The notes below the pieces were generated by a model. It did not search any database and was not told the origin of the DNA. It saw only the letters and a list, made by a program, of their open reading frames with translations. A program made the position numbers and the translations under genes. Of a DNA stretch of 64,000 nt, positions 20,612-57,428 are shown piece after piece; position 1 is the stretch's first letter; every line of letters begins with the position of its first letter. The stretch is from a bacterium (GTDB lineage: Bacteria > Patescibacteriota > Gracilibacteria > Absconditabacterales > Absconditicoccaceae). The stretch covers positions 2,020-66,019 of the forward strand of contig JAYSSF010000090.1 in the NCBI GenBank assembly GCA_043720715.1, given 5' to 3'.

Positions 20612-20632
20612 CGAAAAAATCTAGATAAATTA

Positions 20633-22830: not shown

Positions 22831-25800
22831 ATGATTAAAACAAAAAACATTGCTTGTAGATTCTATTTCTGAATCATTACTTTGATAGTATGATATATGC
22901 TATTGGGCTCATTTGTACATTGATTTGATAGTTGGTGACCAAGAGGTTGGTTTTCTGCTAGTGCGGGTATTACGCAATCATCCAATCTGGTATCTCAGCG
23001 ACAATCAACCGTAGATCCTAGTAATATTTTGGTAGGATGATATTGAAATTCAAGTCTTTATCCTGTATATACTGCAAACGGAATCAACGGATTGCCAGTG
23101 ATAAATTTCACCTATAACCCAGCAGAAAGTAATGATAGATTTATGCTTGGTAGTAATATCTTTGAGCCTAAAAACTGAGGAAGGATGTTTTTCCATATTT
23201 TTAGTGTCGTGTCTCTTGCGACAGCAGGCGATATGAGTCATATTATCTTTCAAGAGCAGCACGATGGTGATAAGAATATCTGACTTAAAGTACAAAATGG
23301 TGGTAACATCCAATTTCTATACGGGTGAGCAGGTGATGGAAAAACTGTGAGTACGACCGTAGCAAGTACAAACTTTACCTGGAACAAGCCGAACTTAATA
23401 TCGGCGTTATATGCAAGTACAACTAATGGAGGAGCTGGTGCTCAGATAAAAGTCAACGGCAATCTCGTTGCTACCAAGACCACCAATCAATCACGAGCAT
23501 GATGATGGGATGGAGTATCTACTAATATCTATCGGTGAAGAATGAATGGATCATTGGCCGAATCTTTGATTTTTAGATGATATGACACAGAGATACTAAG
23601 CTCTGCACAGAAAAATCAAATTGAATCATATTTTATGATTAAATATGGTATTGCTCCGCACACAAGTAACACAAACCTATACAATACTTCCAATGGGCTC
23701 GTATGGAACGCTGCTACCAATGCAAGTTACAATAATAGTATCTTTGGTATTGGACGTGATACAACTAGCAGACTCAATTCAACAACCAGTGAGTCAACTA
23801 CCAATACAACGCTCAAAATCCAAGCCTCTACAACACTAACGAATCAGCAATATCTGATGATGGGAGACGACAATGGTGGGATGTCATGGTGATCTACAGC
23901 ATCCAACGCTCCGATCAATATGGTGAGACTCGCTCGTATGTGGTACGTACAGAAGACATGACCTACTGACGCATATACTACTACGATCTCAATTCCTACC
24001 AGTCAGTTGCCAACTCATGCATCAAATCAGTATTATGTTGCTGTTGATACTGATACTGATTTCTCCAACTCGACGATCTATCCTGCGACCAACGTTGGCG
24101 GAAGATGGACTGCAGCATGAGTAACTATCAATAATGCTAGTTTTGTCACATTTATCGCATGAGTACCTGCAGCATTGGTGGGCGATAGAGTATGGATCGA
24201 TGCCAACAATAATGGTATCCAAGATGAATGAGAAGTAGGTCTCGGATCAGTAACAGTAACGTTGAAGTCTTGTGGCGGGATCTACGGAGCTGGTACTCAG
24301 CCACCAACCAATTACAATGGTACCGTAATTGCTACCACAACTACTAACGCATGAGGCTCTTATAATTTTACGGTAGCACCAGGAGTATATTACGTCGAAT
24401 TTTTGCCATCATCATCATATAAATTTGCACCTCAGCATGCTGGATGATATGGTACCAATATTACCACCAACTCTGATGCTCATCCTCACTCTGGTAAAAC
24501 AAGATGTGAAAACTTTGCCAGTAATAGTACAGACAATAGTATGGATGCATGAGTGATTACTCAGACATATAGTAGTTGTGATAGTCTGACTTTATCCAAT
24601 GTTATCACTGTCTGACCCAATAGATACCAGAAGCCCGGTGTCTCGTTCACAGCCACACTGGCATGATATGGTCAGAATGCTAGTCTCGCATGAACCAATG
24701 TCGCATGATGATGATCTAATACTCAAGCACCCTGAGTCTACAACCGGTCTCCAAGTATGAGTAGTAGTATAATCGGTACCTGGACAATCAATGGGTCCAT
24801 CGACTGATATAACTACAAACTCGACTACTACAACAATCCTGCAGCATATACAAACTCCTGTATGTATAGAACAATCAGTGCTGGAGTATTCTGTGCAGAG
24901 AGGACAGCGTTGGCTCCGTTTATCTGATCGAGTGTCAATATGAATAGTTCACCGACTACAATCAGTCCTATCACATACTGTACACCAGCCCAAACTCTAA
25001 GTAACGGCTGTACAGCTCCTATCGACGCTCCTCAGTCATCACTGGTGAGAACTGACAATACCTGTACACAAAATATCACCATTATGAATGAGGCTACAAT
25101 CTGTAATAGTCTGGTAAGTGATATGAGTGCAGCTGACTGTAATGGTTTGATTGCGTTGTACAATAGTGCATGATGAGCCTCATGGACCAATAAGACCAAC
25201 TGGCTGTTCAACGGAGATACTACATGGACGACAGCATGTGACTGGTTTGGAGTGGCTTGTGCTGGTGGACGTTTGATTTCTGTTGGTCTTTGATCCAATA
25301 ATATGGGAGGTACACTACCTACGCTTCCTGCTGGGGCATGGACTGCTCTCACAGATGTTAGTTTTGTAAATAATAATATCGGTGGATCACTACCAAGTGC
25401 ATGGTCAACATTGACCGCAATGAGATATTTCAATGTAGCAAATAATGTGAATCTTAATACAACACTACCAACAGCATGGTCTACCTGGACACAGATGCTT
25501 GGATTTTGGATTTATGCTACCACTCCATGAGGTACTATTCCAACTCAATGGTCTACTTGGACACAACTTCAGACATTTGATGCCAACTCACCTACCAATG
25601 GTGTAGGATTTAATGGTACACTCCCAGCATCATGGTCGAGCATGACTAATCTAAGAGGATTCTATGTATTTAATCATAAATTAGACTGAACAATACCTAC
25701 TCAATGGTCATCGATGACGCAAATGAGATCATTTATGGCGCATAATAATAATCTGGATGGGCCAATACCAAGCACAGTGGAATCATGGACACTGCTTGAT

Positions 25801-28800
25801 TCCGCATGATGGAATAGTGTGATCTCGAGCAACTGTATGGGTACAGGTCATGTATGAGGAACGCTACTGACTCATCTTAATTCTCGTTTTGCTGGAACTG
25901 ATCCTGCTACCTGGAACAATGCAGCAGCATATGGTTGGAGAACGCAAAAAGCGTGTGCTACTGACATCCGTATCACATCAGCAGTGATCACTGCTGGAGA
26001 TCTGGTCAATGGTAATACTGCTACCTACAGTGTCACAGTCAACAACAACTGATCTCGCTGGGCATATGCACCTCATGTAGCGGTCTCGATAGCAGGAGGT
26101 CTCGTGGCGAGTAGCACAACACTCGTGTATGGTACGCTTGCTCCTGGAGCTAGTCAGACTCTGACATTTACCGTCACTAAGGGTAGTGTCACTGCTGGTA
26201 CCAACAATATAACCAATACATTTGTCCTATCAGATGCATCAATCTCTGATCCAACACCTGGTAATAATACGGTAACGAGCATCACGTCTGTAAGATGAAG
26301 TAGTTATACCATGTGTAATAATAGCTCTCTGACGGTGCCAACAATAGAATGTGAATCACTCAATAACCTCTATGCAAGCACTAATGGTGTCTCATGGGTC
26401 AACAAGACCAATTGGACAACAAATCCTGATATAAGTACGTGGTTTGGAGTTACTACGGCATCATACACGGACGGTCCATTTATGAGATTTACGTTTGATG
26501 ATAGTACTGTGGTTGATAAGAGTAGTAATGGTCGCAATGGTACGATCGTATGAGGTACTACATTTACAGCTGGTAAATTTGGTAATGCTGCCAGATTTGA
26601 TGGATTATCAAATAGTAGAGTCACTACAGTTAGTACGGCAGCAGCTGGCAATAACATCACATGGTCTGCGTGGATCAATAGAGAACAATCTACCAATGCA
26701 TACAATATGTTTATGTGACAGTGGCTTCCTTATGCTGCGTTTAGGAGTGATGGGTATATTATGTGGTCACTCAATATCAACTGAGTACAGCAAAGTATTC
26801 AAAGTGCAAGTAATGCATATGTTGATAATACCTGGTACTTTGTGACAATGACGTATGATGGTTCAACGATTAGGTTATATGTAGATGGAGCCCTTAGTAA
26901 TTCACAATCACAACCAGGTACGCTATCATATAGTAATACATTTTCAATCGGAGACGGATATGAGGGTGCTTGGTATCCATTCAAATGAATGGTGGATGAT
27001 GTGCGCGTCTATAATCGTGTTCTCACTCCTGTAGAGATAGCACAGTTATATAATAGTAATGAGATTAAAAACACCGTTAGATCACTAAATCTAAATCCAA
27101 ACGGTGTATGTGGACGATGAACTGACGCAGCTACCAACAATATGATAGGTACCTTGCCTGCGTCATTGGGTAATTTGTGATCACTTGATGCTTTATGTTT
27201 TGCGTATAATCCTGGACTCGTAGGTTGATTGCCTTCCACCTTTGGTAACTTGAGGCTGATGAATAATCTTGTAGTACATAGTAACGTCAACCTAAAGGGA
27301 CAATTGCCAGCAAATATAACCCAAATGAGCCCATCTACTCTTTGGATGCCTAGCAATGGATTTACTGGTAACCTCAATGCTTTATGATCATGGAATAGAA
27401 CTGTATGGCTTGGTCTGTATAATAATGGGTTTACTGGTCCTATACCATCTACAGTGTCTAATATGACAGCAATGTACTATTTCCATTTAAATAATAATCC
27501 ATGATTAACTGGGCCACTACCAAGTCAGCTTTTCTCATTACCCAATATTGGATACGTGATCTTAAGTAGTAATAATCTGAATACATCAGTACCGACTCTG
27601 ACATATAATCCATCACTATTCTATATTGATCTGAATAGTGCAGGCATCGTGGGTAATCCTTTTGCTGAGTTGGTCAAGATGACAAATCTGACTCAATTAC
27701 ATGTTGGTGGTAATCCATCTATATGATGATCAGTACCATCTACAATCAATAACCTTAATAAACTCACTCACCTCAATATTAGCGCTAATGGTATGAGTAA
27801 TACTACATTGCCTAATATTACAATTCCTACTTTACAATATCTTTGGGCCAACACAAATGGATTTACTGGTTCACTCCCATCATTACCAGCATCAATCAGG
27901 AATTTTGAAGCACAGGATAATATGTTCAAGGGAACTTTGCCAGTAAGCTATGGTTCATTAACAAATCTGCAGTATCTCTATCTACGAAGTAGTCAGCTCG
28001 AATGAGCAATACCTAGCTCATGGGCGGGTATGACACAGTTGAGAAGGTTGTGACTTGGTAATAATAATCTCGAATGAGTGATGCCTGTATCCACTTTCCA
28101 AGCAATGACCAGTCTCGACACCAATCTATGGTGATCAATGTTAGGTAATAACTGTTTTTATAATGGATCTCTGACTGTTGGAGAAAGAAACTATATGGAT
28201 ACTAAATTTAGTCACTGGCTTGGCGATAGTTTTTGGGAATGGAGAAACCAAAAAGCCTGTGGTACTGACTTGGAGGTAGTATCAGCTACTCCATCGGGTA
28301 CCCTACAAAATGGAAGTCAGATCGCCTATACTGTGACGATCCGCAACAATGGACCTCGTATCGCCTATGATCCGAAATTCAATATTACATTGACAAATGG
28401 TCTCCAGTTTAACGATAGCTCCAATAGTACTAAGACGATCAATCTTGGTCAGATGACCGCATGACAGACTATTGTACAGACGATCATCGTCAATAAGCTA
28501 TGAGTAGGTAGCACGACGATCAACTATACCAATACGTTTGCTGTAGCAGATACATCTACTAGTGACCCTACGCCAGCCAACAATAGTAAATCTCATGCAG
28601 GTACTGCCAATGGTAGTGCATATCCGATCTGTCTCAATCCTACTACCAACGTAATCCAGTCAGACTGTGAAGCTCTATGAGACCTCTATACAGCCACTGC
28701 TGGGGCCAACTGGACTCGCAAAGCCAACTGGCTCTCTGCTACTGACGTGAGTACATGGCAGTCAGTAACCATCTCTGCTGGTCGTGTCATCAACCTGGAT

Positions 28801-31800
28801 CTGTCGGTCAATAATCTCAACTGATCTCTACCTGCAAGTATCGGTAACCTCACCATGCTAAGAACACTGTATCTGAGTGAAAATGGGTGACTGACTGGAC
28901 CTATTCCTAGTACAATTGATCAGTTGGATGAGCTGACACATCTGTATTTCCACTATACAGCAGTCAACTGATCTCTGCCTACCACGATCTGAGGTATGGC
29001 AAAGATGTCTTACCTGTATGGCTTCAATACTCAAATTAGCGGTATACCATCTCAGATTGCTAATTTGCCAATAATCAATCAGCTTCAGTTCCAAGGAAAT
29101 CCCAATACCACCAGTCTACCAGATATGACTGCGCTCAATGATACGCTCAGGGTATTCTTTTTCCACAGTAATGGTATTACATGACCTATCCCATCATGGA
29201 TGGGTAATATGACTAACCTACAGTATTTCTATATTGGTTATAATCCGTTTACTGCCGGATGAGTACCTGCTTGGATCTGCAATATGACTAGCTTACAGGA
29301 CTTATATATTGCTGGTAATAATCTCAATGGTACCATGCCAACATGTTTCAACAATGCTTTCCCTCAAATGAGAGCCTTCCAGATTCAGTGAAATCAGATC
29401 GAGGGGCTTCCACCAACTTTGTCTAATAGTAGTAGCCTGACACACTACTATATTCACTCTAATCTGTTCAGTTGACCACTACCAAGCTGGATGGCAAATA
29501 TTGCCACCTTTAGATATTTATATATGGATAGTAATAGATTTACAGGCCCAATCCCAGCAAACTTTGCTAATATGAGTACTGCAAGTATCATCTTCCGTGT
29601 AAGTAGTAACTATCTGGATCGTGATGCAAGCAACAACGCGCTCATCTCTCCAGCATTACAAACATGGTGGAACAATATTGTAGTATATAACAATGACCCA
29701 ACAAACTATAAACTCATCTGATGACAGTGAGACATCACTACGCCACTCCTCGGAACAAATGCGAAGCGTCTGCCAGCATATCCATTATTCAACTACAATG
29801 GTCAACCTATGTCTACAGCGATCATTACATGACCAAATGGTAGTAATGTGGAGGCTATATTGCTATGATGATCTCCATATCATGTCGGATATGACAATGG
29901 AGATCATGGTATCACCTTCCAAAATAGTAAAACATATACACTATCGTTTTGGGCTCGTACAACGGCTGGTACTCGTACTATCAATCCTGCACTGAGTGAT
30001 AATACTAATGATTGATTAGTTCCGCAAGTATACAATATTGATACAACATGGAAACAAATCACTGTAAGAAAGACCTATGCTGCTGTATGAGCTAACCCTC
30101 GTGTATTTATTAATTACACTGATGGTGGTACGGCATTCTACTACTATGACCCAATTGTGACTGAGTCTACTGATCTACCTACTGCTATTGACACTAACCG
30201 TATCTCTGTCTTTGATCCTGTAGTTGAGTGATCTGACTTTGCGACAGCTGGCGTAGCAGTATCTGTGTGAGGCGGTGGCACATGTTCTAACCTATTAGTC
30301 ACTCCTAATGCACTCAATAGCAAAAACCTTCCTCAAGCAGCATCTCAGTTTAATCCAGATAATGGCCTCATCGTTCACTATGGATTTGAAGGAAGTAGTG
30401 CAACAGATAATGCATGATGAGATAATAACTGAGCTCCTATCAATATCTCCTATGTTGCAGGAGGTCGTATCACAACCTGAATTGCAGAGAGTGCTGCTGG
30501 TGGATACATCTCACACTCTACCAATGGGCTAAGTCCTACCAATGGTACAATCTCGGTCTGGCTCAGGCCTACAGTATTGTCATCATGGGGTATCTGGCAG
30601 ACGCATAATGGAGACGTCAATCCAGTAAACTGGATCTCGATGTTCTCATGGACCAATGAAAATCTCTACTTCCGTATGGGTGATGGTATTAGCTGTTGTA
30701 GCAACGACCTTGTTATCAGTCCTACTGTCTATATCACTCCTAGTGCATGGAATCATCTTACATTTACATGGCAGGGTAATGCTGACGGACTAGTCAATGA
30801 TACCATGAATATCTATGTCAATGGTAGACTAGTATGAACTCGTACTGCAAACCTGCAGTGATCGATTAATCCGATAGGTCTTTTGGGCTATGGACATGCT
30901 CGTGACTTAGATGGTACGCTGGATGATTTCCGTGCATACAACCGTGCACTCAGCGCTGCTGAAGTAGTAAACCTGTATAACGAAAGATCAATTAATATTG
31001 CAGCTCAGGGTAGCTATGCATGATGTTATCTCATTACCACCGATCGTGGATCAAATACATCCAATGCAGTCAGACTAGGAGATTTTACAGCTACGTTTTC
31101 ACCATATCCAATATGTAATAATCCTGCTCGTACCGTACCTCAGTCTGAATGTACTGCTCTCATGGATCTGTATACGAGTGCATGATGAGCTTCATGGACA
31201 AACAAGACTAACTGGGGCACGAGTCCAGATATCGATAGCTGGTTTGGTATACAAACCGTCACTGTTGGCTCAGATCAGCGTGTGTCTGCCATCTGTATCA
31301 ACCGTACAGCATGATGAGCAGAGCAGTGTGGATATGGAGGTATTGGTAACAATATGATAGGAACATTACCTGCTTCGATTGGTAGCTTCCCATATTTGAC
31401 AACTCTCGGACTCTCGGACAATGATGGACTTACTGGTCCCATCCCAACAGGTATCGGTAATCTGACAAACCTAGTACTATTCCAATCAACACAGACAAGT
31501 CTCAACGGTACACTCCCAGATAGTATGGTAAATCTCAATAATCTGACCAACCTGTATCTCTGGGGCAATGATCTGAGTGGTAACCTACCATCTGCGTGGG
31601 GTGCTGGTATGAATTCGATCAACTATATCCACCTGGATAGTAATTTACTCTCATGACCAATCCCTGCATCATGGGCCAACTTTGCCGATACCATGACAGC
31701 ACTGGTACTCAGTAGTCAGAGATGAGCTACCAAGCTTAATGGTACGCTACCATCATGGTTGGGTAACTTTACCAAGATTAGTTGGGTATTCTATTTTCAC

Positions 31801-40638: not shown

Positions 40639-40653
40639 GAATTATAATTTATA

Positions 40654-40711: not shown

Positions 40712-40723
40712 GGGTTTAGTTTC

Positions 40724-40864
40724 ATAAACCCCTCTGGCTTATGCCATCTACCGTCGAGCGGCACCGAGGTCTCCTTGTCAAGGGAGACTCACAGGTTAGA
40801 TTTTTATTATGTTTATTCTGAGTCGAGTCACCCCTCCTGATAAGGAGGGGACGGGGGAGGTTTA
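40724..40864 (+). repeat. direct repeat DR1 (141 nt) flanking the DUF559 gene
   Basis: ataaacccctc..ctccttgtcaagggag..tttattatgtttattctgagtcgagtcacccctcctgataaggaggggacgggggaggttta. Two palindromic hairpins. Homologous to 41311-41430 in the same orientation. Confidence 0.8.
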
Positions 40865-40918
40865 TAATCACGGTAGTAGAATTTTAAATCCATTATTGTT
40901 GTATACTTAAATCTCAAA

Positions 40919-41314: not shown

Positions 41315-41430
41315 ACCCCTCCGGCGTTCCGCCACCTCCCCTTGACAAGGGAGGCTCATGAATTGAATTTTATTGTGTTCATTTTGAGTTGAGTCACCCC
41401 TCTTGTCAAGGAGGGGAAGGGGGAGGTTTA
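41311..41430 (+). repeat. direct repeat DR2 (120 nt)
   Basis: ataaacccctc..ccccttgacaagggag..tttattgtgttcattttgagttgagtcacccctcttgtcaaggaggggaagggggaggttta. DR1 carries an extra ~21 nt near its 5' end. Confidence 0.8.
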
Positions 41431-41496
41431 CAAAAGCAAGGATTAATGATACGAGTGTATATTGAATAAAACATGTCAATACACTATAATTATAAA

Positions 41497-41521
41497 GCAT
41501 CCGAGCGTACGGGTGTTTTTT
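41497..41521 (+). terminator. intrinsic terminator closing the DUF559 cassette
   Basis: CATCCG (41498-41503) / CGGGTG (41510-41515) with one G.T pair, then T6 at 41516-41521. Confidence 0.55.
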
Positions 41522-41548
41522 GACACAAGGTTGCAAAAGGGTTAGAAT
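41520..41548 (+). promoter_or_regulatory. near-consensus promoter of giant gene C
   Basis: TTGACA (41520-41525), 17-nt spacer, TAGAAT (41543-41548), about 75 nt upstream of ATG 41625. Confidence 0.55.
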
Positions 41549-41624
41549 CTAATGATAAACTGTATAAAATGGGTAAACTAGACCATATTATGCAGTGACT
41601 TTACACTTCTACCACGCACGCACA

Positions 41625-47600: not shown

Positions 47601-50600
47601 CCGACTACAATCTCCTCATGGACTAAGCTCAAAGAGCTCTATCTGGACAACAATGGTATGACAGGAGCGATCCCATCATCACTGTTTGCTCTCACATGAC
47701 TACAGTCTCTCCAGCTACAGAGCAACAACCTCCATGGTGATCTCTCAGCTCAGAACTGGTCAGCTTTGACCAATCTATACACCTCAGCGTTTGGTGGTAC
47801 CAAGTCAGCACTGGAAAACAACTGTCTGTACACAGGTAGAGTAGCCGGCACTACTGGTACATTCCTGGATGCAAGATTCAACTTTACTTCATGACCTGCC
47901 ACCAACTGGAGAAATCAAAAATTATGTAATACCGACCTCCAGATGACATCATTTGCTACGATTGGTAATCTGATGACTGGAGTGACGATGAGTTTTGTGT
48001 TAGATTATACGAACCTTGGTCCAATCCCATCATACAACCCGATCGTCACCATCCAGCTTGCAAGTGGACTCAATCTGACAGTATCAGGTAACTATACCGC
48101 TGGTCGTACGACTGGTGTACGTGTCGCAGATCTTGCACCTGGTCAGACTGGTCAATATACCTTTACAATCAATAAGACACAGTTAGGCTCATGATTTTGG
48201 CCATGATTGATCAATGTATTTAGAATTGATGATCCTACGAGATCTGACACCACTGGAGGTAACAACTTGATCACCAATAGTACGGATGCTCGTGGTAGTA
48301 GCTATCCGGTATGTATACGTCCAGATATCTCAGTACTCACGTATGAATGTGAAGCGCTATGAGACTTATATGCGTTTACCAATGGATCTGGCTGGACGAC
48401 CAAGACCAACTGGATGACTTCACCAGATGTAGAATCATGGCATGGTATCTCACTGGTTACACTCACATGAGTCAACTATGTACAGAAGATATGTATGGCG
48501 ACTGCTACAGATAGTACGTCGTGTCAGGATAATCGAAATGCTGGTACAGTAGGTAATAACCTCAGTTGATCTCTTCAGTCTACACTCAGTGATCTCTTCT
48601 GGCTCAAAGAACTTCGCGCTCCGAACAATAATATCAATGGTCTTATCCCATCATCATTTGCAAATCTTGATAGGATGACTCATACCGTGCTTCACGGTAA
48701 TAAAATCACAGGTATGTGAACATGATTTGGTGGTATGGCAGAGCTACTTTGGTTACAACTCGGTAATAACCCTTTGACCATCATTGATTGATGAGTTGCC
48801 AATGCTCCCAAGATCTCTACTCTAGCATTTGAAGAAACAAATATCACATCCCTACCAGATCTTACAAGCGCCTGTGATACTCTAACAGCACTATCGATGT
48901 TTAGTCTAAATTCTCTCAATACTACTATACCATCATGGTTCTCATGATGTACTAAGCTCAATGTTCTTAATGCTTGGTTTGCATGATTGACAGGCACAAT
49001 CACGACTCAATTTAGTATGTCGAGTCTGCAAAGTCTACTTATTTACGGCAATAATCTCAATGGAACTTTACCCACATCACTATCTACTGGATTAACACAG
49101 CTGAGACTTGATGGCAATAAATTTACGTGAATTCTCCCTACTGCTTGGTCATCATTGGTAAATCTTCAAACCCTCAACCTCAGTAGCAACACTGGTCTCG
49201 TATGAACCCTTCCAAGCTCATGGTCTGGTCTGAGATTACTACAAACCCTCAACCTCTCGGATGCATGACTGACAGGACAGATTCCAGCTTGATGGTTCCC
49301 AGTGATGACAGGGATGCGTGATTTTGTGATCCCCAATGGATCGCTCAATGGACCAGTACCAGCTACATGATTCCAGTTATGGCCACTGCTCAGAACATGA
49401 CCGATCACGAGTGCTATCACCAACAACTGTATGTATACTGGTTTGGTCAATGGTGCAGTAGCTACCTGGATGAATACCTATATCGGCTGGGCTACTCAGC
49501 GTACCTGTACTACTGATAATCAGCTATCACTGGTGTCCAAGTCCGCAGTAGACTACAATCCTGGCAAGACGATCACTTATACCATCAACTATGCCAACAA
49601 CTGACCTCGCTGGTCGTATGAGCCTAGGATCAGTATTGATCTATTTACAGGACTTGTCTTGTCTTGAACTGTGAGTAGAACATGAACCATCACACTCCCA
49701 ATACTCACACCAGGTCAGACTGGTCAAGTACTCATTACTGCCAACAAACGTGGTACGGGTAGTGGAGTGGTAACATATACTAATATTTTCTCTATTGCAG
49801 ATACAACTACAGTTGATTCAATTCCTGCCAACAATACTATTGTAGATAGTGGAGCGATGAGATTGTTCAAATACAATGAATGTATCGATGTGACGGATGT
49901 GCCACAACCAGAGTGTGAAGCGGTTATGGATTTCTACATATCTACCAACTGAGCATCTTGGATAACTAAGACTAATTGGGCATGATTATGAGATGCTACA
50001 CCAAACACGTTGTGTGATTGGTATGGGCTCAAATGTAGCTGAGGTCGTGTGACCAATTTATGTTTAGCAGGATCTACAGCTGGTACTCAGTGTCAAGATG
50101 CTTGGTCGTCTCCGTGAGGAAATAATCTCAGCGGTAGCTTACTCTCTACGATTGGTGATTTGACAGAGCTTACAGGCCTATTCTTGTGAGATAATAATCT
50201 CAACGGATCTATCCCATCGCAGGTAAATAATCTCACAAAGTTACTCACATTATCTTTATGAGATAATAAATTTACATGACCGGTCCCCACGATGACCGGC
50301 TTACAACAGATGATATGGCTTCATTTGGGTATGAATCAACTTGCGGGTACATTACCTACATGGCTTGCTCAGATGTCACAGCTATCATGAGTCACGTTGT
50401 TTAGTAACTTATTTACATGACCCCTACCAACATCATGGACTGGAGCCAACAAGTTACAATATTTATCATTGGGCAATAACCCTCTCAATAATGGGGTACT
50501 CCCTTCAGAATGGTCGTCTCGATCATCTCTCAAAGAAGTATACATTCAATGATCTCGGCTTACCTGATCACTACCAACATCATGGGGTAGTCTGACTGGA

Positions 50601-53600
50601 TTAGTGAAAATTAATCTTTCGACCAACTATATCAATGGGTCACTACCAACATCATGGACTGGTATGAGATCTCTTCAAACACTTAATCTTGGGGGGAATA
50701 CATTATTTGGTTTGTTGCCAGTATCATATAGTAGTATGACTGGCCTGACAGAACTCATATTGTATGGTAATCCTCTGGTTGGAGCAACATTACCTACAAC
50801 TTGGTCAGCCCTCATCAATCTTCAAATTCTTGATCTATCATCATCACAACTCAGCGGTACACTACCAGCCTCATGGTCATGATTGACCAAGCTAGTTACT
50901 CTCAATCTATCTAGCAACAATTTTAGCGATGAGATACCAACCTCATGGCTTAGTGGTATGAAGATGCTTCAGTCATTAGGAATCAGTGATAACAGTTTAG
51001 TATGAGCGATTAATACACCATTATTACAATCCCTAACTGGATTAGTAGGTAACAGTTCAACAATAATGAATAACTGTCTGTATACTGGTACGGTAATCTG
51101 ATGATATTTGGGTTGGATGGATACATACTTTACGACTTTATGGAGGACACAACGTAAGTGTAACGCAGACCTACAGCTCACTGGCATGAGCGTAGTAGGC
51201 AATATGATGAGTGGAGCATTTATGACATATACGTTTACATATAATAATCTTGGGCCAAGTCGAGCATATCTACCTAAGGTCAATGTGACACTGTATACAT
51301 GATTTATCTTCGTCAATGGAGGAGGTTCTACTACCGGTATCAATCTATGATATCTCAGACCAAATACTTCATGATCACTGACGATACCGATTGCTAAGAT
51401 TGCAGTGGGTTCATGAGTGGTGCCATTTACCAATACGTTCGTGATAGATGATACTACGAGTAATGATGTAGCTACTAGCAATAATACAATCATCCATACT
51501 GGTACGCTTAGATTGTTCAAATACCCAATTTGTGGTTCAATCACCGATATTAGTCAGGCAGAGTGTGAAGCATTGTGAGATTTCTATACATCGACCAACT
51601 GATCTGGTTGGACCAATAAGACTAACTGGATGTGATTCGGTGATGCGACTACTGCTACCGCATGTGACTGGTTTGGTGTATCATGTACTACACTGACATG
51701 ATGGATCTCTCCTATGACAGTAGATAAGCTATGTATGTCACATACCAATACTGGTGCAATGTGTAATCATGCTCCTCGGTATACGTGAGGAGCCATAGGT
51801 AATAATTTAAGCGGTAGTCTTAGTCCTTCTATTTCAGATTTGGTATGACTTACTATATTATCTCTCAATATTAATTCTAAGTTAGTTTGAACTCTTCCAT
51901 CAAATATCAATAATCTTAGTAAGTTAAAAGAGATTGGTATGCAGTATGGTCCAAAGATTACAGGCATAATTCCTAGTTCAATAACTCAAATTACATGATT
52001 ACAACTTATCTGATTTATTGACAATCAGCTTACATGATCTATACCTGCAAATTTATTTACTCTACCTCAATTGTGAGTAGTGTGGCTTTGATTTAATCAA
52101 CTAAATGGCATAATCCCTCAGACATGATGATCTTCAATTGGTGATTTATATCTCCCAGGTAATGCTAATCTTGGATGACCATTACCAAGTTGGATCGCCA
52201 CTACTCCTACATTGAATTGGTTAAGACTTAATAATACCCTAATTTCAGGTTCTCTTCCATCATCATGGTCTAGCCTAACCAATCTGTATCATATGGACTT
52301 GAGTAATATGATTAACCTCACAGGTTCGCTTCCATCATCTTGGAGTACTATGACAAATTTGTGAGAGTTAATATTAGATAATAATAATCTTACATGATCA
52401 CTTCCATCATCTTGGAGTACTATGACAAATCTTACAAGACTAAGTCTCAGTAGTACCACAAATCTCACAGGTACTCTCCCATCATCTTGGTCTAATCTCA
52501 GAAAACTTATAACCCTGAGACTCAATAATAACACTCTCAATGGTGAAATACCATCATCTTGGTCATCATTGACATGACTGACAGCGTTTACTATTGCGAA
52601 CAATAATATTGATGGACCAATACCTACGTGGCTCAATACTTCATATCCATCACTAGGGATCAACAGTTCAACAATATCAAACAACTGTATGTATACAGGT
52701 TTTGTAAGTGGATCTTTATTGACCTATATGAATAGTAGATTCGGCTCCAACTGGCAGACTCAGAAGATTTGTTCAACTGACTTGGTACTAGGTACGATTA
52801 CTGCATCATGATCTCTTAATACCTGAAATGTATTGGCATATACGATCAACTATACTAACGGCTGAACTCGTTGGCTGTATAATCCAAGAATAGCTATTCA
52901 ACTATCCCAAGGATTGGCGGTGAGTACTACGACAGGCGTATATATCGGTACACTATGAGCTTTAGCTCCATGACAATGAACATCTACATCAGTATCTGTA
53001 AACAAGAACTACTTTACTGGTCTATGATTGAGTCAGTTTGCTAATATATTCACGCTCTCTGATCCTAGTATCTCTGATACAAATAGTGGCAATAATGCCT
53101 TCACTCATACAGGTATCGTAAGAGGTAGCCCATATCCTATTTGTTTAAATAGTAGTCTGACCGTGTCTCAAGATGATTGTGAAGCACTGATGGATCTGTA
53201 TATTACAGCTCAAGGTACTGCTTGGGTCAACAAAGCCAATCGATGAATCAGTCCAAATGTGGATACATGGTTTGGAATTTCTGTTGCTAACGGGCGCGTC
53301 TCGAAACTAAATCTGAGTAATATAACAGATGAAAACTTACCTTGTAGTATCGTGACAGGTAGTAATAATCTGGTAGGTAATCTACCACTATCAATCATCG
53401 CACTGACCAATATGAAAGACCTATGTCTGGGCAATAATCAGCTTACTGGCAACCTACAAGTATGACTTCTATCGTTGACATGATTACAGACGCTATCTCT
53501 CCATCATAATAATACCAGATTCCCATGAGTAATATCTGGTATGACATCATTGGTGACATTGGATATGTGATACAATAATCTGACTTGATCGCTATCTACT

Positions 53601-56600
53601 ACGATATGAGTGTTGCCTTCACTCAAATATCTCTACCTTGATGGCAACCAGATTGGAGGATGAATATCACAGCTTAGCTCTTATGCAGCCTTGCAATGAG
53701 TCAGACTTAATAATAATCTATTTACAGGCTCAATATCAACGACGATATCGTGACTCAACTTCCTGACAGAACTCATACTTACTAATAACTTCCTGGATCG
53801 TGATCATAATAATGACGCGCTTGTTCCATCATCAATCGTAAGTTGGTATAATAGTATCACACTGAGGTCTCGTGGTAATCAATGAGATATTGCTGCTCCG
53901 ATATTAGCATGATCAATATCTGTTCCTGCATCTATCTCATCATGATCGATACCAATTACTTTTACCATCAACGAAAATAGTCATGTATCTTGATCTTATA
54001 CCGCATGAATCTATAGCTGACAAAATGTATGATGATTATATGCAATTTTGACTGGTGCATGATATTGCTCTACTATTTCCAGTGACATAGTCCGTTCTCA
54101 TACAGGTGTTATTGTAATTTCTATTTATCCTGAGACAGACGCTACTTATACATCATGTCAGATTGCAGTACGCGATAGAGCAAACAACCTTTCTAATTAT
54201 CTAACAATACCTACATTCACTTATACACAGCCACCATATAGACTTCATATAAGATTCTCTGGGTCATGAGTAGTATTATCTAATAATACACTCCAGTCCA
54301 TCAATGATCTATCGTCGTTTGCCAATGTTATCACTATGGTATGATGAAATCCATCATATATTCCATTAGTATTTAATGATAATCCTGCAGTTCAGTTTAA
54401 TAATAGTCAATCGCTAATGATGCCTGGGATCTTCCGTAGGCAAATATTTAATGATACTAACATTTTAATGGTTGTAAAACCATGATCAAGTAGTTCAAGT
54501 TTACTATTTGAGCAAGCACAGTGAGGAACCCCAGTAGTACTGAGTACTAATTCATGGAATGTATGATCAGATGCTGTATCATTTAGTTTACCAACGACAG
54601 CGTATTCACTAATCAATGCATCTCACGTCAATGGTTGACAACATCAAGTAAGAGTGAATGGAGTACTAGCAAATACAGTATCAGCAAGTCAGCCATTGCA
54701 GGTAACCGGTATCTCAATCACTACAATTGGTTCATGACTATGATTATGAATGTTATGAGAAGTAATCGTCTACACCAGTAGCCTGAGTGGAGTAGCGTTG
54801 AATTATTTAGAGTCATATTTAGCTGTCAAGTATGGTATTACGCTACCTTCAAATTATACTGCAGTCACAAGTGGTACATGATCAATGAGCACAATATGGA
54901 CAGCGAATCCAACATATCAACATCAGGTAATCTGACTTGGTCGTAATTTAAGCTCTCCATTGCCTATCAATCAGAGATTATCATCATCTTCTTCATGAGC
55001 AGATATTACATTACATGCTCGTGGTAGTTGGTCTGATGGGCAGTATACTATGGTTGGTGCTACAAGCGGTGATGTTAAAAATTGGACAAGAGAAGTCTCA
55101 TTACTTACTTGATATAAATTACTGCCTCGTACATGGTATGTGCAGAAGACTGGTACTCCACAATTTGATATTAGTGTTACTGATACTTCGATTGCAGATT
55201 TCAACTTTACTCCTACGATCTTCATATCTAATAGTCCTTCATCTACTACGATTGTATCATCATGAGAACTTGTACTGAGTGGTACAAAATGGATTACCTC
55301 ATGAATAACCATTACTAATGGTCAATATTTTACCTTTGGTATTGGACAGAGTAGTATGTGAGGTAGAGTGTGGCTTGACTTGAATCGTGATGGTATTCAA
55401 TCTCCATCAGAGCCAAGCGTTGCTGGAGTCAAAGTCAAAATACGAAGATGTCCTGTTCGTCAAGACTGATGAGTTGGCCCATGGTATCTATCGCAGTGAG
55501 CAGTCAGTCCTCAACCTATGCTTAAAGAGCAAATCACAACCACAGGGGCTACAAACTATATGTTTACACAACTTAATGCATGAGAATATTATATGACATA
55601 TGATCGATCTCAGGCAATCGTCAATTCGCTCGATGGTAATCAATGATTGACTGGTACTCAAGATGCAACTAGTAATCCATGATCATATAATGGTGGAAAC
55701 CTATGGTCAGACTATGAAGCATATTCACCTTGGAATAACAATAAATCTTCACTATGGTATGGATTTATGACTAGTTTGTCTGGTATTGATAGTAAGACAA
55801 TTGACAGTGACCTCCTATCCACAACATATCAATGATATACATCTAAGTTACCTCAATCAAGCCAATGTTACTCTATTAGAGCATGATCGACACAATCATC
55901 AATCTGAGCATGATTAATGCTTGTTAATAGTACAGATCTTAGCCTCACTCACTCTCTGAATCTTGTTTCTATAGACAATGTTTCATGATCTCAATTTAAC
56001 CTTACAGTTAACGCCATTAATAACGGTGCAATTACGTCTCATTATACACAAATAGTGATACAGCTACCCGCTGGTGTGCGTGCTATAGGGGTCACCAATA
56101 GTAGTGGTAGTATGTCGTATGTAGTGTCCTGATTGCAGCTCAAGATCTATAATGGAGCACTTAATCCAAATACCACATCAACATATACCATTAACTTGAT
56201 CTATGATTGATCAGAAGACGATGGAGATGTATTAACATTTGGTTCTACGCTTATGTCTACGACAGTCGATACAAATCCTTCTAATAACACCCCAGTAAAC
56301 CAAACACTTACTTTGTTGAGAAAATGAGCTAGTATTGGTAATAAAATATGGATTGATGCTAATCTAAATGGTATTCAAGATTCTAATGAATTAAATAGTT
56401 CTTTGGCAGCTGGATTAATAGTTGAATTACGTCATGCCATTACAGATGCAATAGTAAAACCATCGAAGCAAAGTTCATTGGGTGGAGAATACTTATTTAG
56501 TTCTGTGTGAACTGGCGCCTATTATATTTTCGTTACTAATTTGCCAAGGTGATTTATATTTACTGATATTGGAGTGCCATGATCTACTACTGTAAACGAC

Positions 56601-57428
56601 AGTAATATCAACCCAGCAACAAATAAGTCAGACACTATCACTATCACTGACTCTACTGATAATCTATCGATTGATATTGGTCTTAAATCAATTAGCCCCC
56701 TGAGTCAGTGTTCTATAGTGTGGGCTCATAAGATGAGATTATGAGTATCATACACATCATTTATCGATACCTATACTGCTTGATCAATATTATGACATCG
56801 TCTCTTGAGTGTAGATAGAATATGGACTGAGGTAGCGGATCATAATCAAAGTGCCGCTCTACCAACACTACAGCTATATAATAATGGCCGATGATATCCT
56901 CGATGATATATTGCTCCGTCGTCAACACAAACAACAGCCATTGCAGGGAATCCAGCTTATATTGCTATCAAAGCACCATTAACTCGTGCTGCTACTGGTC
57001 AGATGATTGTATCATACAACTATCTATGATGTTATACTTCAGCAGCTCTTCCTCAGTATTGTCAGCAGGCATTTAGATATAATAGCTGTCATACATACGA
57101 GATTACAGCTTGTGGAGATGGTATTGTTGATTCATATACTAATACATGATATATCTGATCTAATTGGTGATCTGAAGAGTGTGATAATGGTGCAGGCAAT
57201 GATGGCATCACGGTAATCAATAATGTTAAGTGTAAGGTTGACTGTATGATTAATCGCGACAATATCGCTGATCTTGCAGTTACAAAGAGAGATATTATTC
57301 GTAATATGTGTGAGCTTAACTCTGGTAGTGATGGTATATGATGATGATCATGATCGCTTGCTGGATCAGGCAATAGGGCAACTCTAGTGACTTGATCTAC
57401 TACAAGTTATATGAGTATTGTAAATTAA
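41625..57428 (+). CDS. giant secreted multidomain surface protein C, 5,267 aa
   Basis: ATG 41625, upstream of the TTG used by track ORF 41676 and in the same frame; TAA 57426-57428. Frame-0 track ORFs 43056, 44364, 47943, 49767, 50604, 51108, 53028 and 53259 all fall inside it, and the gaps contain only TGA. Signal peptide [37 protein letters not shown]. Seven Cys-caps start near 42237, 44540, 46935 (split), 48345, 49900, 51555 and 53170. LamG signatures lie near 42900 and 46020. DUF11-like cores lie near 41930, 48020, 49600, 51255, 52865 and 56020. C-terminal region: LamG-like, SdrD-B-like and a CGDG..EECDNG Cys-rich repeat. Confidence 0.85.
45360..46975 (+). repeat. gene C copy of the segment shared with gene B (36985-38640)
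   Basis: See the feature at 36985. ..tggatcgatagtgataacga..ggtgagactggtacaggatgagt.. and the SdrD-B-like part are near-identical between B and C. Confidence 0.7.
52329..52430 (+). repeat. adjacent near-identical 72-nt LRR units in gene C
   Basis: cttccatcatcttggagtactatgacaaat occurs at 52329-52358 and again, identical, at 52401-52430. Confidence 0.85.

What the first reader, a model, noticed from the sequence alone, without database searches (positions are those of the whole stretch)
22831..57428. Two back-to-back giant ORFs (5,935 and 5,267 codons) built from a reiterated cap / LamG / LRR / NNC / DUF11 module
With gene A (2,862 codons), about two thirds of the window encodes three secreted giants.

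B and C repeat one module many times:
- A Cys-cap C..L..LY.S..G.SWTNKTNW......W.G(V/I), resembling plant LRRNT.
- Often a Laminin_G_3-type LamG ending D(D/E)[14 protein letters not shown].
- A block of 24-residue plant-type LRRs.
- The motif NNC(L/M/F).TG....F...(K/R)F...W..Q..C.TD(L/I).
- A DUF11-like repeat (..Y..TV.NNGPRW.Y.P..).

Giant LRR/LamG adhesin-like proteins are plausible host-attachment devices for episymbiotic or predatory CPR cells. This particular module grammar and its scale deserve a proper description.
Basis: partly seen in the sequence, partly recalled or inferred. Interest (0 to 1): 0.7.

Follow-up and report, generated by a model that had tools for sequence, protein, structure and literature searches.

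The report
Giant split LRR adhesins, code 25
Two adjacent, real genes of 5,935 and 5,267 codons in a bacterium that reads TGA as glycine encode giant exported proteins made of 16 plant-type leucine-rich-repeat binding modules, probably for sticking to other cells, and one module is split exactly between the two genes in four independent genomes.

Summary
With TGA as sense, B (22831-40638, 5,935 aa) and C (41625-57428, 5,267 aa) are open frames. TGA encodes Gly: it fills the invariant LRR glycine column 29 times and conserved Trp columns once.

Pfam confirms Laminin_G_3, LRR, DUF11/CARDB and SdrD_B. The repeat is the 24-residue plant-specific LRR class with an LRRNT-like cap.

Mis-assembly is very unlikely. 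Internal DNA repeats are at most 79% identical, and three other assemblies carry collinear orthologs (dN/dS about 0.2).

- A second LRR ending (LDRD...Ig-like).
- LamG nested inside other domains.
- A DUF559 cassette inserted between B and C.
- B ends in an uncapped LRR block, while mature C begins with the orphan "NNC" cap.

This split is conserved in all four genomes.

Best reading: these are Sec-exported, internalin-like "poly-LRR" surface adhesins of a code-25 (Gracilibacteria/Absconditabacteria-type) bacterium. B and C descend from one roughly 11,000-aa gene and may re-associate by cap complementation; that step is inferred and untested. Giant adhesin-like proteins are already known in this group, so this is a new variant of a known kind.

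The parts
22831..40638 (+). Gene B: 5,935 aa plus stop, 186 TGA (Gly) codons in its stop-to-stop frame. It holds 9 cap+LRR modules.
   Evidence: Collinear orthologs in L003 (63-74% identity), L001 (48%) and L004 (40-49%).
22831..22926 (+). B N-terminal signal-like hydrophobic segment (aa 1-32). Whether it is cleaved or acts as an anchor is undecided.
   Evidence: Hydropathy scan. It is the only hydrophobic segment in B.
22927..24165 (+). B N-terminal 'KYGI' region (aa 33-445), paralogous to C aa 4201-4575.
   Evidence: KYGI motif. No local Pfam hit. The orthologs carry a precomputed PF26628 DUF8202 hit among the first families listed for B and the late ones for C; its exact position on the product was not checked.
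24166..25098 (+). B SdrD_B domain plus a Cys-containing beta-rich region of unknown family (aa 446-756).
   Evidence: Pfam SdrD_B 83 bits. The rest gives only a weak DUF4957 hit.
25099..26310 (+). B M1: cap, 7 LRR, NNC cap, DUF11/CARDB.
26311..28626 (+). B M2: cap, LamG (inserted between the cap and the first LRR), LRR, NNC, DUF11.
28627..31110 (+). B M3: cap, LRR, LDRD ending, CBM-like region, LamG, Ig-like (TDRG).
31111..32451 (+). B M4: cap, about 9 LRR, LDRD ending, Ig-like (TDRA).
32452..34215 (+). B M5: cap, LamG, LRR, NNC, DUF11.
   Evidence: Fragments P0002, P0003 and P0089 are orthologs of this region.
34216..36063 (+). B M6: cap, LamG, LRR, LDRD, Ig-like.
36064..38577 (+). B M7: cap, LRR, NNC, SdrD_B with a nested LamG, then an unknown beta-rich region. 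This stretch has the highest DNA similarity to C (74-79%).
38578..39864 (+). B M8: cap, 8 LRR, (G)NC cap, DUF11.
39865..40635 (+). B M9: cap and LRR block with no C-terminal cap. The protein ends '...IPPWLTGLVNLQ' inside the module.
   Evidence: The same ending occurs in L003, L001 and L004. It covers HMM positions 1-42 of an intact junction.
40653..40677 (+). Intrinsic-terminator-like hairpin (11-bp stem plus a T run) 15 nt after B's stop.
   Evidence: Equivalent hairpins follow the B orthologs.
40770..41433 (+). Inserted cassette: DUF559 endonuclease-like gene (40919..41314, 131 aa) flanked by 98-nt direct repeats (40770-40867 and 41337-41433, 82% identical) that fold as hairpins.
   Evidence: Pfam DUF559 E=1.4e-24. 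Repeats. Absent from the B-C spacer of L003, L001 and L004.
41520..41548 (+). Sigma-70-like promoter TTGACA-17-TAGAAT upstream of C, inside a non-coding block conserved in the relatives.
   Evidence: 11 of 12 matches. Conservation.
41625..57428 (+). Gene C: 5,267 aa plus stop, 199 TGA (Gly) codons in its stop-to-stop frame. It holds 7 cap+LRR modules plus an orphan N-terminal cap.
   Evidence: Orthologs in L003 (55%) and L004 (44-57%).
41625..41735 (+). C signal peptide (aa 1-37), with predicted cleavage at AQA|QVSTL.
   Evidence: An A-x-A-type site followed by an invariant QVSTL occurs in L003 and L004.
41736..42197 (+). C M0: orphan NNC cap plus DUF11 with no LRR in cis. It is the missing end of B M9.
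   Evidence: It covers HMM positions 50-93 of an intact junction.
42198..44507 (+). C M1: cap, LamG, 7 LRR, LDRD, CBM_4_9-like region, Ig-like.
44508..47024 (+). C M2: cap, 8 LRR, NNC, SdrD_B with a nested LamG, then an unknown region.
47025..48308 (+). C M3: variant cap (Cys-rich insertion), LRR, NNC, DUF11.
48309..49874 (+). C M4: cap, LRR, NNC, DUF11.
49875..51524 (+). C M5: cap, 12 LRR, NNC, DUF11.
51525..53138 (+). C M6: cap, about 9-11 LRR, NNC, DUF11.
53139..54224 (+). C M7: cap, LRR, LDRD, Ig-like.
54225..55349 (+). C 'KYGI' region, paralog of the B N-terminal region.
55350..56684 (+). C SdrD_B, DUF11, SdrD_B.
56685..57425 (+). C Cys-rich C-terminal region of unknown family. It has no TM helix and no LPXTG signal.
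4352..12976 (-). Gene A: 2,874 aa, a third giant. It has 7 Bact_surface_Ig-like domains, one cap plus 7-LRR block, at least 4 SdrD_B domains and a Mucin2_WxxW region.

Best explanation
B and C, with A, are real genes translated with code 25. They encode Sec-exported giant cell-surface proteins of the adhesin type.

**Module design.** Each protein is a string of internalin-like modules. A disulfide-bonded N-terminal cap related to plant LRRNT comes first. It is followed by 5-12 plant-specific 24-residue LRRs whose concave face is the likely ligand-binding surface. A C-terminal cap closes the block: either the lineage-specific two-cysteine 'NNC...C.TD' cap or a cysteine-free 'LDRD' type. A beta-sandwich spacer (DUF11/CARDB, SdrD_B or an unassigned Ig-like domain) ends the module.

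**Lectin-like additions.** Seven LamG and two or three CBM-like jelly-rolls are spliced in as nested cassettes. They would add carbohydrate binding.

**Likely role.** Sixteen such modules on fibres of very roughly 0.1 micrometre (my estimate) would give multivalent binding to another cell's surface. For a code-25 CPR-type bacterium that cell is most likely its host or prey.

**Origin of B and C.** They descend from one roughly 11,000-aa gene that was split inside a module. B ends with an uncapped LRR block, and mature C starts with the matching cap.

**Shown versus inferred.** The genes, the code, the domains, purifying selection and the conserved split are shown. Export, surface location, adhesion and any B-C re-association are inferred.
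For: **Reality of the genes.**
- Open frames of 5,935 and 5,267 codons, with chance probabilities of about 1e-111 and 1e-104.
- TGA is Gly.
- DNA repeats within B and C are at most 79% identical over at most 436 nt.
- Collinear orthologs with the same module order occur in three independent assemblies: L003, L001/L002 and L004.
- dN/dS is 0.22-0.26.
- Neighbours are housekeeping genes, and the synteny RNase_H_2-like ORF, GlyRS, B, C is shared with L004.

**Domains.**
- Pfam hits above the gathering score.
- LRR consensus [24 protein letters not shown] with period 24. This fits the published plant-specific class, LxxLxLxxNxL(t/s)GxIPxxLGxLxx of 23-25 residues (PMC2946307).
- phmmer against solved structures: MIK2 at E=1.5e-42, and all top 60 hits are plant LRR ectodomains. 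Foldseek gives the same neighbours.

**NNC as a C-cap.**
- It always follows an LRR block, whichever domain comes next.
- It has two invariant cysteines.
- An AlphaFold model places it as a last strand plus helix (pLDDT 65-85 over this part).

**Binding face.** Concave-face variable positions are 51% identical between orthologs. Convex or loop variable positions are 66% identical and framework positions 77% (Fisher p=8e-4).

**Export.** There is a single N-terminal hydrophobic segment, and C has an A-x-A site.

**Split module.**
- The same B end and the same mature C start occur in all four genomes for B and in three for C.
- The fused B-end + C-start scores 66-82 bits end to end against an HMM of intact junctions. 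Intact junctions score 72-104 bits in leave-one-out tests.
- B M6-M9 plus C M0 is collinear with C M1-M4. This is a tandem four-module duplication only if B and C are joined.

**Precedent.** Giant surface proteins of 1,392-4,163 aa with DUF11 and other adhesion domains, thought to mediate host attachment, are described in the code-25 predator Vampirococcus (PMC8080830).
Against: - There is no experimental or expression evidence.
- No ligand, host or organism name is known.
- No cell-wall or membrane anchor is recognisable apart from the N-terminal hydrophobic segments. There is no LPXTG signal and no C-terminal TM helix, so surface retention is unexplained.
- Signal peptides were judged by hydropathy and A-x-A rules only.
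- The structural model covers only 183 residues at mean pLDDT 66, and the second model failed.
- Faster change on the concave face is not positive selection (pN/pS 0.50) and is also expected for any exposed surface.
- About a quarter of each protein matches no family. This includes the KYGI regions, the post-SdrD regions, the Ig-like 'TDRA' domains and C's Cys-rich end.
Confidence: 0.7

Rival explanations
1. Trans complementation. After export, C's orphan N-terminal NNC cap (last strand, helix and disulfide) docks onto B's uncapped C-terminal LRR. The two proteins would then form one non-covalent fibre of about 11,200 aa. This is an extension of the best explanation rather than a replacement for it.
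For: - The split lies within a few residues of the same point in all four genomes for B and in three for C, despite 40-74% overall identity.
- The spacing from the last LRR to NNC is restored in the fusion: 19 residues against 21 in intact modules.
- The fusion fits the intact-junction HMM end to end. B's tail covers positions 1-42 and C's start covers positions 50-93.
- LRR caps shield the hydrophobic core of the terminal repeat (PMC2946307), so an uncapped end and an orphan cap are each unusual on their own.
- C has a cleavable signal peptide and no anchor of its own.
Against: - No complex prediction or experiment was possible.
- The NNC motif is conserved everywhere, so its conservation at C's N-terminus is not specific evidence.
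- B and C have separate transcription signals.
- There is no intermolecular cysteine.
- A terminal LRR can sometimes be tolerated without a cap.
Confidence: 0.35
2. Neutral gene fission. B and C are simply two independent adhesins, and the split point has no functional meaning.
For: - There is a terminator after B and a promoter before C in every genome.
- Both proteins have their own signal-like N-terminus, 'M-x-K-T-K'.
- In the window a DUF559 cassette sits between them without apparent harm.
Against: The split ends are kept nearly unchanged across genomes that differ at half of their residues. An exposed LRR core and an orphan cap would be expected to decay or be trimmed if they were useless.
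Confidence: 0.3
3. Structural envelope or coat proteins (S-layer-like or a fibrous sheath) rather than host adhesins.
For: - Three giants fill 66% of the window.
- Vampirococcus giant proteins are linked to a fibrous cell surface (PMC8080830).
- The Ig-like spacers are typical of surface layers as well.
Against: LRR, LamG and CBM-like domains are binding modules, not lattice formers. No SLH or S-layer family was found. The concave LRR faces diverge fastest.
Confidence: 0.12
4. Artefact: mis-assembly of shorter paralogs, a pseudogene, or plant contamination (because of the similarity to plant LRR receptors).
For: The sequence is repetitive. The best solved-structure hits are all plant proteins.
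Against: - Repeats are at most 79% identical at the DNA level.
- Three independent assemblies are collinear over as much as about 5,400 aa (L003), with further collinear stretches in L001/L002 and L004.
- dN/dS is about 0.2.
- There are 385 in-frame TGA codons that behave as Gly.
- The flanking genes are bacterial housekeeping genes.
- There is no kinase or TM region.
- The same cap plus plant-type LRR occurs in other bacteria.
Confidence: 0.02

Closest known systems
Giant membrane/surface proteins of Vampirococcus lugosii (Absconditabacteria, code 25), PMC8080830
   Same: Both are from code-25 CPR-type bacteria. Both involve several very large predicted surface proteins, include DUF11 domains, and have a proposed role in recognising and attaching to the host.
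   Different: - Those proteins are 1,392-4,163 aa and are described with WD40, TPR, PKD, saposin, integrin and fibronectin domains.
- Here the proteins are 5,267-5,935 aa and are built from plant-type LRR modules with LamG cassettes.
- Homology between the two sets was not tested.
- No split module is reported there.
Listeria internalins (InlA/InlB type): N-cap, LRR, Ig-like inter-repeat domain
   Same: Each module here has the same logic: a cap, an LRR solenoid, then a fused beta-sandwich. This is a proven design for binding host-cell surface proteins through the concave LRR face.
   Different: - Internalins use 22-residue LRRs (from my own knowledge) and have one module per protein, with LPXTG or GW anchors.
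- Here the LRRs are 24-residue plant-specific ones with cysteine caps.
- There are 16 modules in tandem and no LPXTG signal.
Plant LRR receptor ectodomains and PGIP (plant-specific LRR class with LRRNT)
   Same: The repeat consensus and length are the same. Sequence similarity is significant, including through the N-cap (MIK2 E=1.5e-42). They are also the structural neighbours.
   Different: - There is no TM helix or kinase.
- The C-terminal cap (NNC...C.TD) does not align with the plant one.
- The blocks are short (5-12 repeats) and are reiterated with Ig-like spacers.
- The genes are bacterial and use code 25.
Bacterial LRR proteins with the 'ALVDLYNSTNGANWTN...WyGI' cap (for example P0172 from a Saprospiraceae MAG, P0166, and P0169 with Pfam LRRNT_2)
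   Same: They share the same N-cap followed by plant-type LRRs.
   Different: Only short fragments were seen, so their full architecture is unknown. The NNC cap was found with its full length only in this lineage.
Giant repeat adhesins of other bacteria (RTX adhesins such as LapA or SiiE; MSCRAMM SdrD; the giant proteins of Omnitrophota, 10.1101/2023.11.21.568195)
   Same: These are very long, repetitive exported proteins with Ig-like spacers and terminal or interspersed binding domains. SdrD_B domains are shared with the Sdr family. The preprint links giant proteins to adhesion and predation.
   Different: No RTX or T1SS features and no LPXTG signal were found. The dominant binding unit here is an LRR.

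Membership tests
Genetic code 25 (TGA = Gly; SR1/Gracilibacteria code) | TGA is a sense codon | tested here: met
   Treating TGA as a stop leaves 3 ORFs of at least 200 codons. Treating it as sense gives 38, including ones of 5,952 and 5,284 codons.
Genetic code 25 (TGA = Gly; SR1/Gracilibacteria code) | TGA encodes glycine, not tryptophan (which would be code 4) | tested here: met
   TGA pairs with G 23.5% of the time and with W 1.8%. The LRR Gly column has 55 GGN and 29 TGA. The Trp columns have 58 TGG and 1 TGA.
Genetic code 25 (TGA = Gly; SR1/Gracilibacteria code) | tRNA-Gly with a UCA anticodon, and loss of RF2 | not testable with these tools
   The window has no tRNA genes, and the rest of the genome is not available.
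Plant-specific (PS) class LRR | A 23-25-residue unit with consensus LxxLxLxxNxL(t/s)GxIPxxLGxLxx (PMC2946307) | tested here: met
   The modal period is 24 and the consensus is [24 protein letters not shown]. There are at least 58 units in B, at least 50 in C and 7 in A.
Plant-specific (PS) class LRR | Significant similarity to solved PS-LRR proteins | tested here: met
   phmmer gave 78 hits. The top 60 are all plant LRR ectodomains or PGIP, with a best E of 1.5e-42. Foldseek gives the same proteins, but with weak E-values of 1.7e-3 or worse.
Plant-specific (PS) class LRR | LRRNT-type cysteine N-cap | tested here: inconclusive
   The cap aligns with the MIK2 LRRNT. The long subtype has C..W.G..C, and there are invariant cysteine pairs. 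The relative P0169 carries PF08263. However, a direct Pfam scan of a cap gave no hit at E<=1, and the structural model of the cap failed.
Plant-specific (PS) class LRR | Plant-type LRRCT | tested here: not met
   Alignments to plant ectodomains stop before the NNC motif. No Pfam or NCBIfam family matches it.
Pfam Laminin_G_3 (PF13385) | Score above the gathering threshold (27.6 bits) | tested here: met
   Scores of 133, 188 and 162 bits. Seven stretches in B and C together.
Pfam DUF11 (PF01345) / CARDB (PF07705) | Score above the gathering threshold (24.6 / 22.7 bits) | tested here: met
   DUF11 scores 50.6 and 71 bits and CARDB scores 30.5 bits. The exhaustive search confirms that the second half of the junction profile matches multi-DUF11 proteins widely.
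Pfam SdrD_B (PF17210) | Score above the gathering threshold (29.7 bits) | tested here: met
   Scores of 62-117 bits in A, B and C.
Sortase-anchored MSCRAMM / Sdr adhesins | C-terminal LPXTG sorting signal with a hydrophobic tail | tested here: not met
   There is no C-terminal LPXTG-like motif or hydrophobic segment in A, B or C.
RTX / T1SS giant adhesins | C-terminal RTX repeats and a secretion signal, with no N-terminal Sec signal | tested here: not met
   There is no RTX family in the Pfam scans, and hydrophobic signal-like segments are present at the N-terminus.
Internalin family | A 22-residue LRR with an internalin N-cap and an Ig-like inter-repeat domain | tested here: not met
   The repeat is 24 residues and of the PS class, and no internalin family appears in Pfam. 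The resemblance is architectural only.
Giant surface proteins of Absconditabacteria (Vampirococcus type) | Orthology or shared architecture with the described proteins | not tested
   Only the paper's description was compared.

The most novel reading that the evidence does not exclude
A single LRR domain is encoded in two pieces by two adjacent giant genes. B carries the solenoid without its C-terminal cap. C, after signal-peptide cleavage, starts exactly with the missing last strand and disulfide cap. This arrangement has been kept in at least four genomes. The two exported proteins would join head to tail by cap and strand complementation into a non-covalent surface fibre of about 11,200 residues. 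That would be a previously undescribed way to assemble a super-giant adhesin from parts that are each near the practical size limit for translation and secretion.
Probability: 0.3. Interest if true: 0.75.

Novelty: new variant of a known kind. Interest (0 to 1): 0.55.

Why it matters
How ultra-small, host-dependent CPR bacteria recognise and hold on to their hosts is largely unknown. Their largest genes are systematically shredded in public protein databases, because standard gene callers read TGA as a stop or as Trp. Here almost every database relative was a fragment of 44-183 aa, and the single full-length ortholog (P0005) had been called with TGA read as Trp.

This locus gives a concrete and conserved candidate: 16 diversified LRR binding modules with lectin-like cassettes, on two proteins that may join into one fibre. 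It defines a lineage-restricted LRR C-cap. It shows LamG gained or lost as a cassette between orthologs. It also offers a directly testable structural hypothesis, the split-LRR complementation.

If confirmed, it would add a new assembly principle for giant adhesins and give handles, in the form of module sequences, for host-range studies in Gracilibacteria/Absconditabacteria-type organisms.

Tried and rejected
Only TGA-free stretches and database fragments could be used.
- The N-cap model failed (pLDDT 36) and was not used.
- The word-indexed protein searches returned almost only short fragments.
- In the exhaustive search, the listed best 150 of the 5,266 hits were dominated by generic multi-DUF11 proteins matching only half of the profile. 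I cannot exclude NNC-only matches below the 150 listed.
- Lenient Pfam and NCBIfam scans found no family for the cap, the NNC motif, the LDRD ending, the Ig-like 'TDRA' domains, the KYGI regions or C's Cys-rich end.
- There were no tRNA genes and no Rfam match.
- Attempts to name the organism or the sample environment failed.

**Readings rejected.**
- Mis-assembly or pseudogene, and plant contamination or a receptor-kinase homolog. The reasons are given under the rival explanations.
- Read-through of B into C. The spacer is full of stops in every frame, and C has its own signal peptide.
- NNC as part of the DUF11 domain. It also precedes SdrD_B, and it always follows an LRR block.

**Left open.** B's 5' region may be the source of C's promoter and signal peptide. 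Only a short shared 'TGTCAATA' motif and the 'M-x-K-T-K' start were seen.

Full report

Read with the standard bacterial code, the window is almost free of ORFs. If TGA is treated as a sense codon, 38 ORFs of at least 200 codons appear. They include + 22783..40638 (5,952 codons stop to stop) and + 41577..57428 (5,284 codons). Making TAG or TAA sense instead does nothing. Gene A on the minus strand (4352..12976) is 2,874 aa from its first ATG. The three genes cover 66% of the window.

At the local base composition, the probability of such frames staying free of TAA and TAG is about 1e-111 and 1e-104. The two other forward frames of the same DNA contain 136-420 of these stops.

**2. What TGA means**

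The internal repeats allow a direct test. Across paralogous alignments, TGA positions face Gly in 23.5% of cases and Trp in 1.8%. At the invariant glycine of the LRR unit (N.L.G.IP) there are 55 GGN and 29 TGA codons. At three conserved tryptophan columns there are 58 TGG and a single TGA.

This is code 25. By established knowledge (NCBI table 25) it is used by the SR1/Absconditabacteria and Gracilibacteria lineages. No tRNA gene lies in the window.

The neighbours are ordinary housekeeping genes: TypA/BipA, a PilT-like ATPase, MetRS, GlyRS, ValRS and a YceI-like protein. I assigned these from their sequences; the YceI assignment also has a precomputed Pfam hit. This is therefore chromosome, not an element. 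I could not recover an organism name.

**3. Anatomy**

Pfam, above gathering scores, finds these domains in B and C:
- Laminin_G_3, seven stretches at 133-188 bits.
- LRR_8, LRR_14 and LRR_4.
- DUF11 (50.6 and 71 bits in two of the four scanned halves; absent or sub-threshold in the other two) and CARDB.
- SdrD_B.

Gene A has seven Bact_surface_Ig-like domains, SdrD_B, one LRR block and a Mucin2_WxxW region.

An HMM trained on the repeats gives at least 58 LRR units in B, at least 50 in C and 7 in A. The modal period is 24 and the consensus is [24 protein letters not shown]. This is the published plant-specific LRR class (PMC2946307).

A motif and LRR map shows 9 cap+LRR blocks in B and 7 in C. 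The blocks end in one of three ways:
- (a) The 'NNC...C.TD' motif followed by a DUF11/CARDB domain. There are nine of these, counting C's orphan.
- (b) The same motif followed by SdrD_B (two).
- (c) A cysteine-free 'LDRD..NNA.(I/V)P' motif, then 'QGDIxxP' and a domain ending 'TDRA(N/S)' (five). Two of these also contain a CBM_4_9-like stretch that is below the Pfam threshold.

LamG is never a free-standing bead. Four copies sit between the cap's 'W.G(V/I)' and the first LRR strand. Two are nested inside SdrD_B. One lies in a post-LDRD region.

Paralogous modules are 35-43% identical. They have four invariant cysteines arranged as two pairs, one pair in the N-cap and one in the NNC motif. Caps come in a short form and a long form. 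The long form carries a second pair, 'C.W.G..C'.

**4. What the parts are**

A whole module searched against solved structures hits 78 chains. The top 60 are all plant LRR-receptor ectodomains or PGIP (best hit MIK2, E=1.5e-42). The alignment runs through the N-cap onto the plant LRRNT and stops before the NNC motif.

An AlphaFold model was built for an admissible ortholog fragment (P0002: four LRRs, NNC and half a DUF11). Its mean pLDDT is 66, and 65-85 over the LRR and NNC part. It puts the NNC motif as a final strand followed by a helix, as an LRR C-cap would be. Its Foldseek neighbours are again plant LRR ectodomains, with weak E-values.

The NNC motif always follows an LRR block, whatever comes after it. 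I therefore read it as a two-cysteine LRR C-terminal cap.

No Pfam or NCBIfam family covers the cap, the NNC motif, the LDRD ending, the 'TDRA' domains, the 'KYGI' regions or C's Cys-rich end.

The N-cap is not restricted to this lineage. Fragments such as P0172 (a Saprospiraceae MAG) and P0166 carry 'ALVDLYNSTNGANWTN...W(Y/F)GI' in front of plant-type LRRs, and P0169 has a precomputed LRRNT_2 hit.

The NNC cap seems much narrower. With a profile of NNC plus half a DUF11, an exhaustive HMMER search of 1.84 billion representatives gave 5,266 hits. Among the 150 best that were listed, nearly all match only the DUF11 half. Only P0005 (5,853 aa) and P0089 (117 aa) match the full length. Matches ranked below the 150 listed could not be inspected.

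**5. Are the giants assembly artefacts?**

Within 22.7-57.5 kb, the most similar DNA repeats are 74-79% identical over at most 436 nt. That is too divergent to collapse.

Three independent assemblies also carry collinear orthologs:
- **L003** (JAYVGP010000007.1, an unclassified MAG) has an ORF of at least 6,038 codons that matches B aa 328-5741 at 63-74% identity, followed by an ortholog of C.
- **L001 and L002** (JGI metagenome contigs) are single code-25 ORFs from end to end, 45-48% identical to B.
- **L004** (a 50.6-kb Logan contig) has the order RNase_H_2-like ORF, GlyRS, a B ortholog of 5,853 aa, then a C ortholog of 5,088 aa. This is the same synteny as the window.

Module order is the same in B and its L003 ortholog. 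dN/dS against L003 is 0.26 for B and 0.22 for C, with dS near saturation.

Public protein sets mostly hold these genes as fragments of 44-183 aa, or as TGA=Trp translations. This is why they look rare.

**6. The B/C boundary**

This is the most interesting result.

B and C are not literally back to back. After B's stop comes an 11-bp-stem terminator (40653-40677). It is followed by a DUF559 endonuclease-like mini-gene (40919..41314, Pfam E=1.4e-24) flanked by 98-nt hairpin-forming direct repeats. Next comes a conserved non-coding block with a TTGACA-17-TAGAAT promoter (41520-41548), and then C. The DUF559 cassette is absent from the same spacer in L003, L001 and L004, so it is an insertion in this genome.

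B ends '...IPPWLTGLVNLQ*', inside an LRR block that has no C-cap. C has a signal peptide with an A-x-A site, and mature C begins '[14 protein letters not shown]...'. That is directly the NNC cap and a DUF11 domain with no LRR in front.

Joining the two restores the normal spacing from the last LRR to NNC, 19 residues against 21.

The same B end occurs in L003 and L004 ('WLTG(L/F)VNLQ*') and in L001 ('WFTSLTNLQ*'). The same mature C start ('QVSTL(N/Q)(N/S)NC') occurs in L003 and L004. In L001 the contig ends a few dozen codons into C's signal peptide.

Against an HMM of ten intact junctions, the fused sequences from three genomes score 66-82 bits and align end to end. This is inside the leave-one-out range of intact junctions (72-104 bits). 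B's tail alone covers HMM positions 1-42 and C's head covers positions 50-93.

Finally, B aa 3834-5931 is collinear with C aa 363-2564 (35% identity over 2,371 columns). So B M6-M9 plus C's orphan M0 and C M1-M4 form a tandem four-module duplication that is contiguous only if B and C are read as one protein.

I conclude that B and C descend from one gene of about 11,000 aa that was split inside a module, and that the split is old and maintained. Whether the two halves re-associate is inference. Caps normally shield the hydrophobic core of a terminal LRR (PMC2946307), C has no anchor of its own, and both split ends are conserved. I put this at roughly one in three.

**7. Function**

Each module has the architecture of an internalin: cap, LRR solenoid, cap, beta-sandwich.

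Between orthologs, the variable positions on the concave LRR face are the least conserved, at 51% identity. The convex or loop variable positions are at 66% and the framework at 77% (Fisher p=8e-4). The pN/pS values are 0.50, 0.44 and 0.25. This is faster change without evidence of positive selection.

One LamG cassette is present in the last module of the L003 ortholog but absent in the window and L001. Lectin-like cassettes are therefore gained and lost.

A, B and C each have a single N-terminal hydrophobic segment and no LPXTG signal or C-terminal TM helix.

Taken together, the best-supported reading is multivalent, Sec-exported surface adhesins. For a code-25 CPR-type organism the likely target is the host or prey cell. 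This matches what is proposed for the giant DUF11-containing surface proteins of Vampirococcus (PMC8080830) and for giant proteins of predatory bacteria generally (10.1101/2023.11.21.568195). Export, localisation, anchoring and ligand all remain inferred.

**8. Novelty and verdict**

Giant adhesin-like proteins in this bacterial group, plant-type LRRs in bacteria, and all four Pfam domains are known.

The following appear to be undescribed:
- The scale of the proteins.
- The two-type module grammar with nested LamG cassettes.
- The lineage-restricted NNC cap.
- The conserved splitting of one LRR module across two giant genes.

I rate this a new variant of a known kind, with an interest score of 0.55. 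Its interpretation is supported as far as sequence analysis can go, but it is incomplete.

Noticed in passing
window 40770-41433: A DUF559 endonuclease-like mini-gene (40919..41314, 131 aa, Pfam E=1.4e-24) is flanked by 98-nt direct repeats (82% identical), each folding into strong hairpins (about -33 kcal/mol). It sits in the B-C spacer only in this genome, not in L003, L001 or L004, so it looks like a small mobile cassette.
   Followed up: partly
window 41440-41624; L003 18180-18376; L004 22830-23046: A non-coding block upstream of C is conserved in all relatives. It contains 'ATGTCAATA(C/T)A(C/T)TATAAT', a short hairpin with a T run that overlaps the -35 box of a TTGACA-17-TAGAAT promoter, and a conserved 5' UTR of about 77 nt ('GTAAACTGTATAAA...'). 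A similar 'TGTCAATA' motif lies upstream of B. There is no Rfam match. It may be a regulatory leader.
   Followed up: partly
window 18746-18857 and 19936-20047: 112-nt inverted repeats (95.5% identical), each folding into two strong hairpins (-35 kcal/mol), flank a 341-aa RNase_H_2-superfamily (exonuclease-like) ORF at 18859-19917 on the minus strand. An RNase_H_2 ORF also lies near GlyRS in L004 (one ORF away).
   Followed up: partly
window 15057-15479 (+) and 20180-20620 (-): Two paralogous small ORFs (about 141-147 aa, motif 'LVL(V/I)AP(I/L)TTKYHK') lie in inverted orientation. They account for a 555-nt inverted DNA similarity of 66%. By eye they resemble MazF/PemK-type toxins, but no family search was run.
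   Followed up: no
window B aa 5278-5284, C aa 220-226, C aa 3867-3873: In three of the 16 caps in B and C (of 17 counting gene A's) an otherwise invariant tryptophan is replaced by arginine ('WTNKTNR', 'GRTSKTNW', 'WVNKANR'). The meaning is unknown.
   Followed up: no
L003 ORF1 aa about 5600-6037 versus window B aa 5679-5935: The last module of the B ortholog in L003 contains a LamG cassette between the cap and the LRRs. This cassette is absent in the window and in L001, so LamG is gained or lost as a unit between orthologs.
   Followed up: partly
public protein collections (P0001-P0003, P0089, P0155-P0176, P0005): Relatives of these genes are stored almost only as fragments of 44-183 aa (TGA read as a stop), or, for P0005, as a 5,853-aa protein with Trp at every TGA (code 4). 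The family is therefore badly under-represented and mistranslated in databases.
   Followed up: yes
window 127-1978: Two small predicted membrane proteins with several hydrophobic stretches (366 and about 300 aa under code 25) lie upstream of TypA. The second ends in a Gly-rich tail. They were not examined.
   Followed up: no
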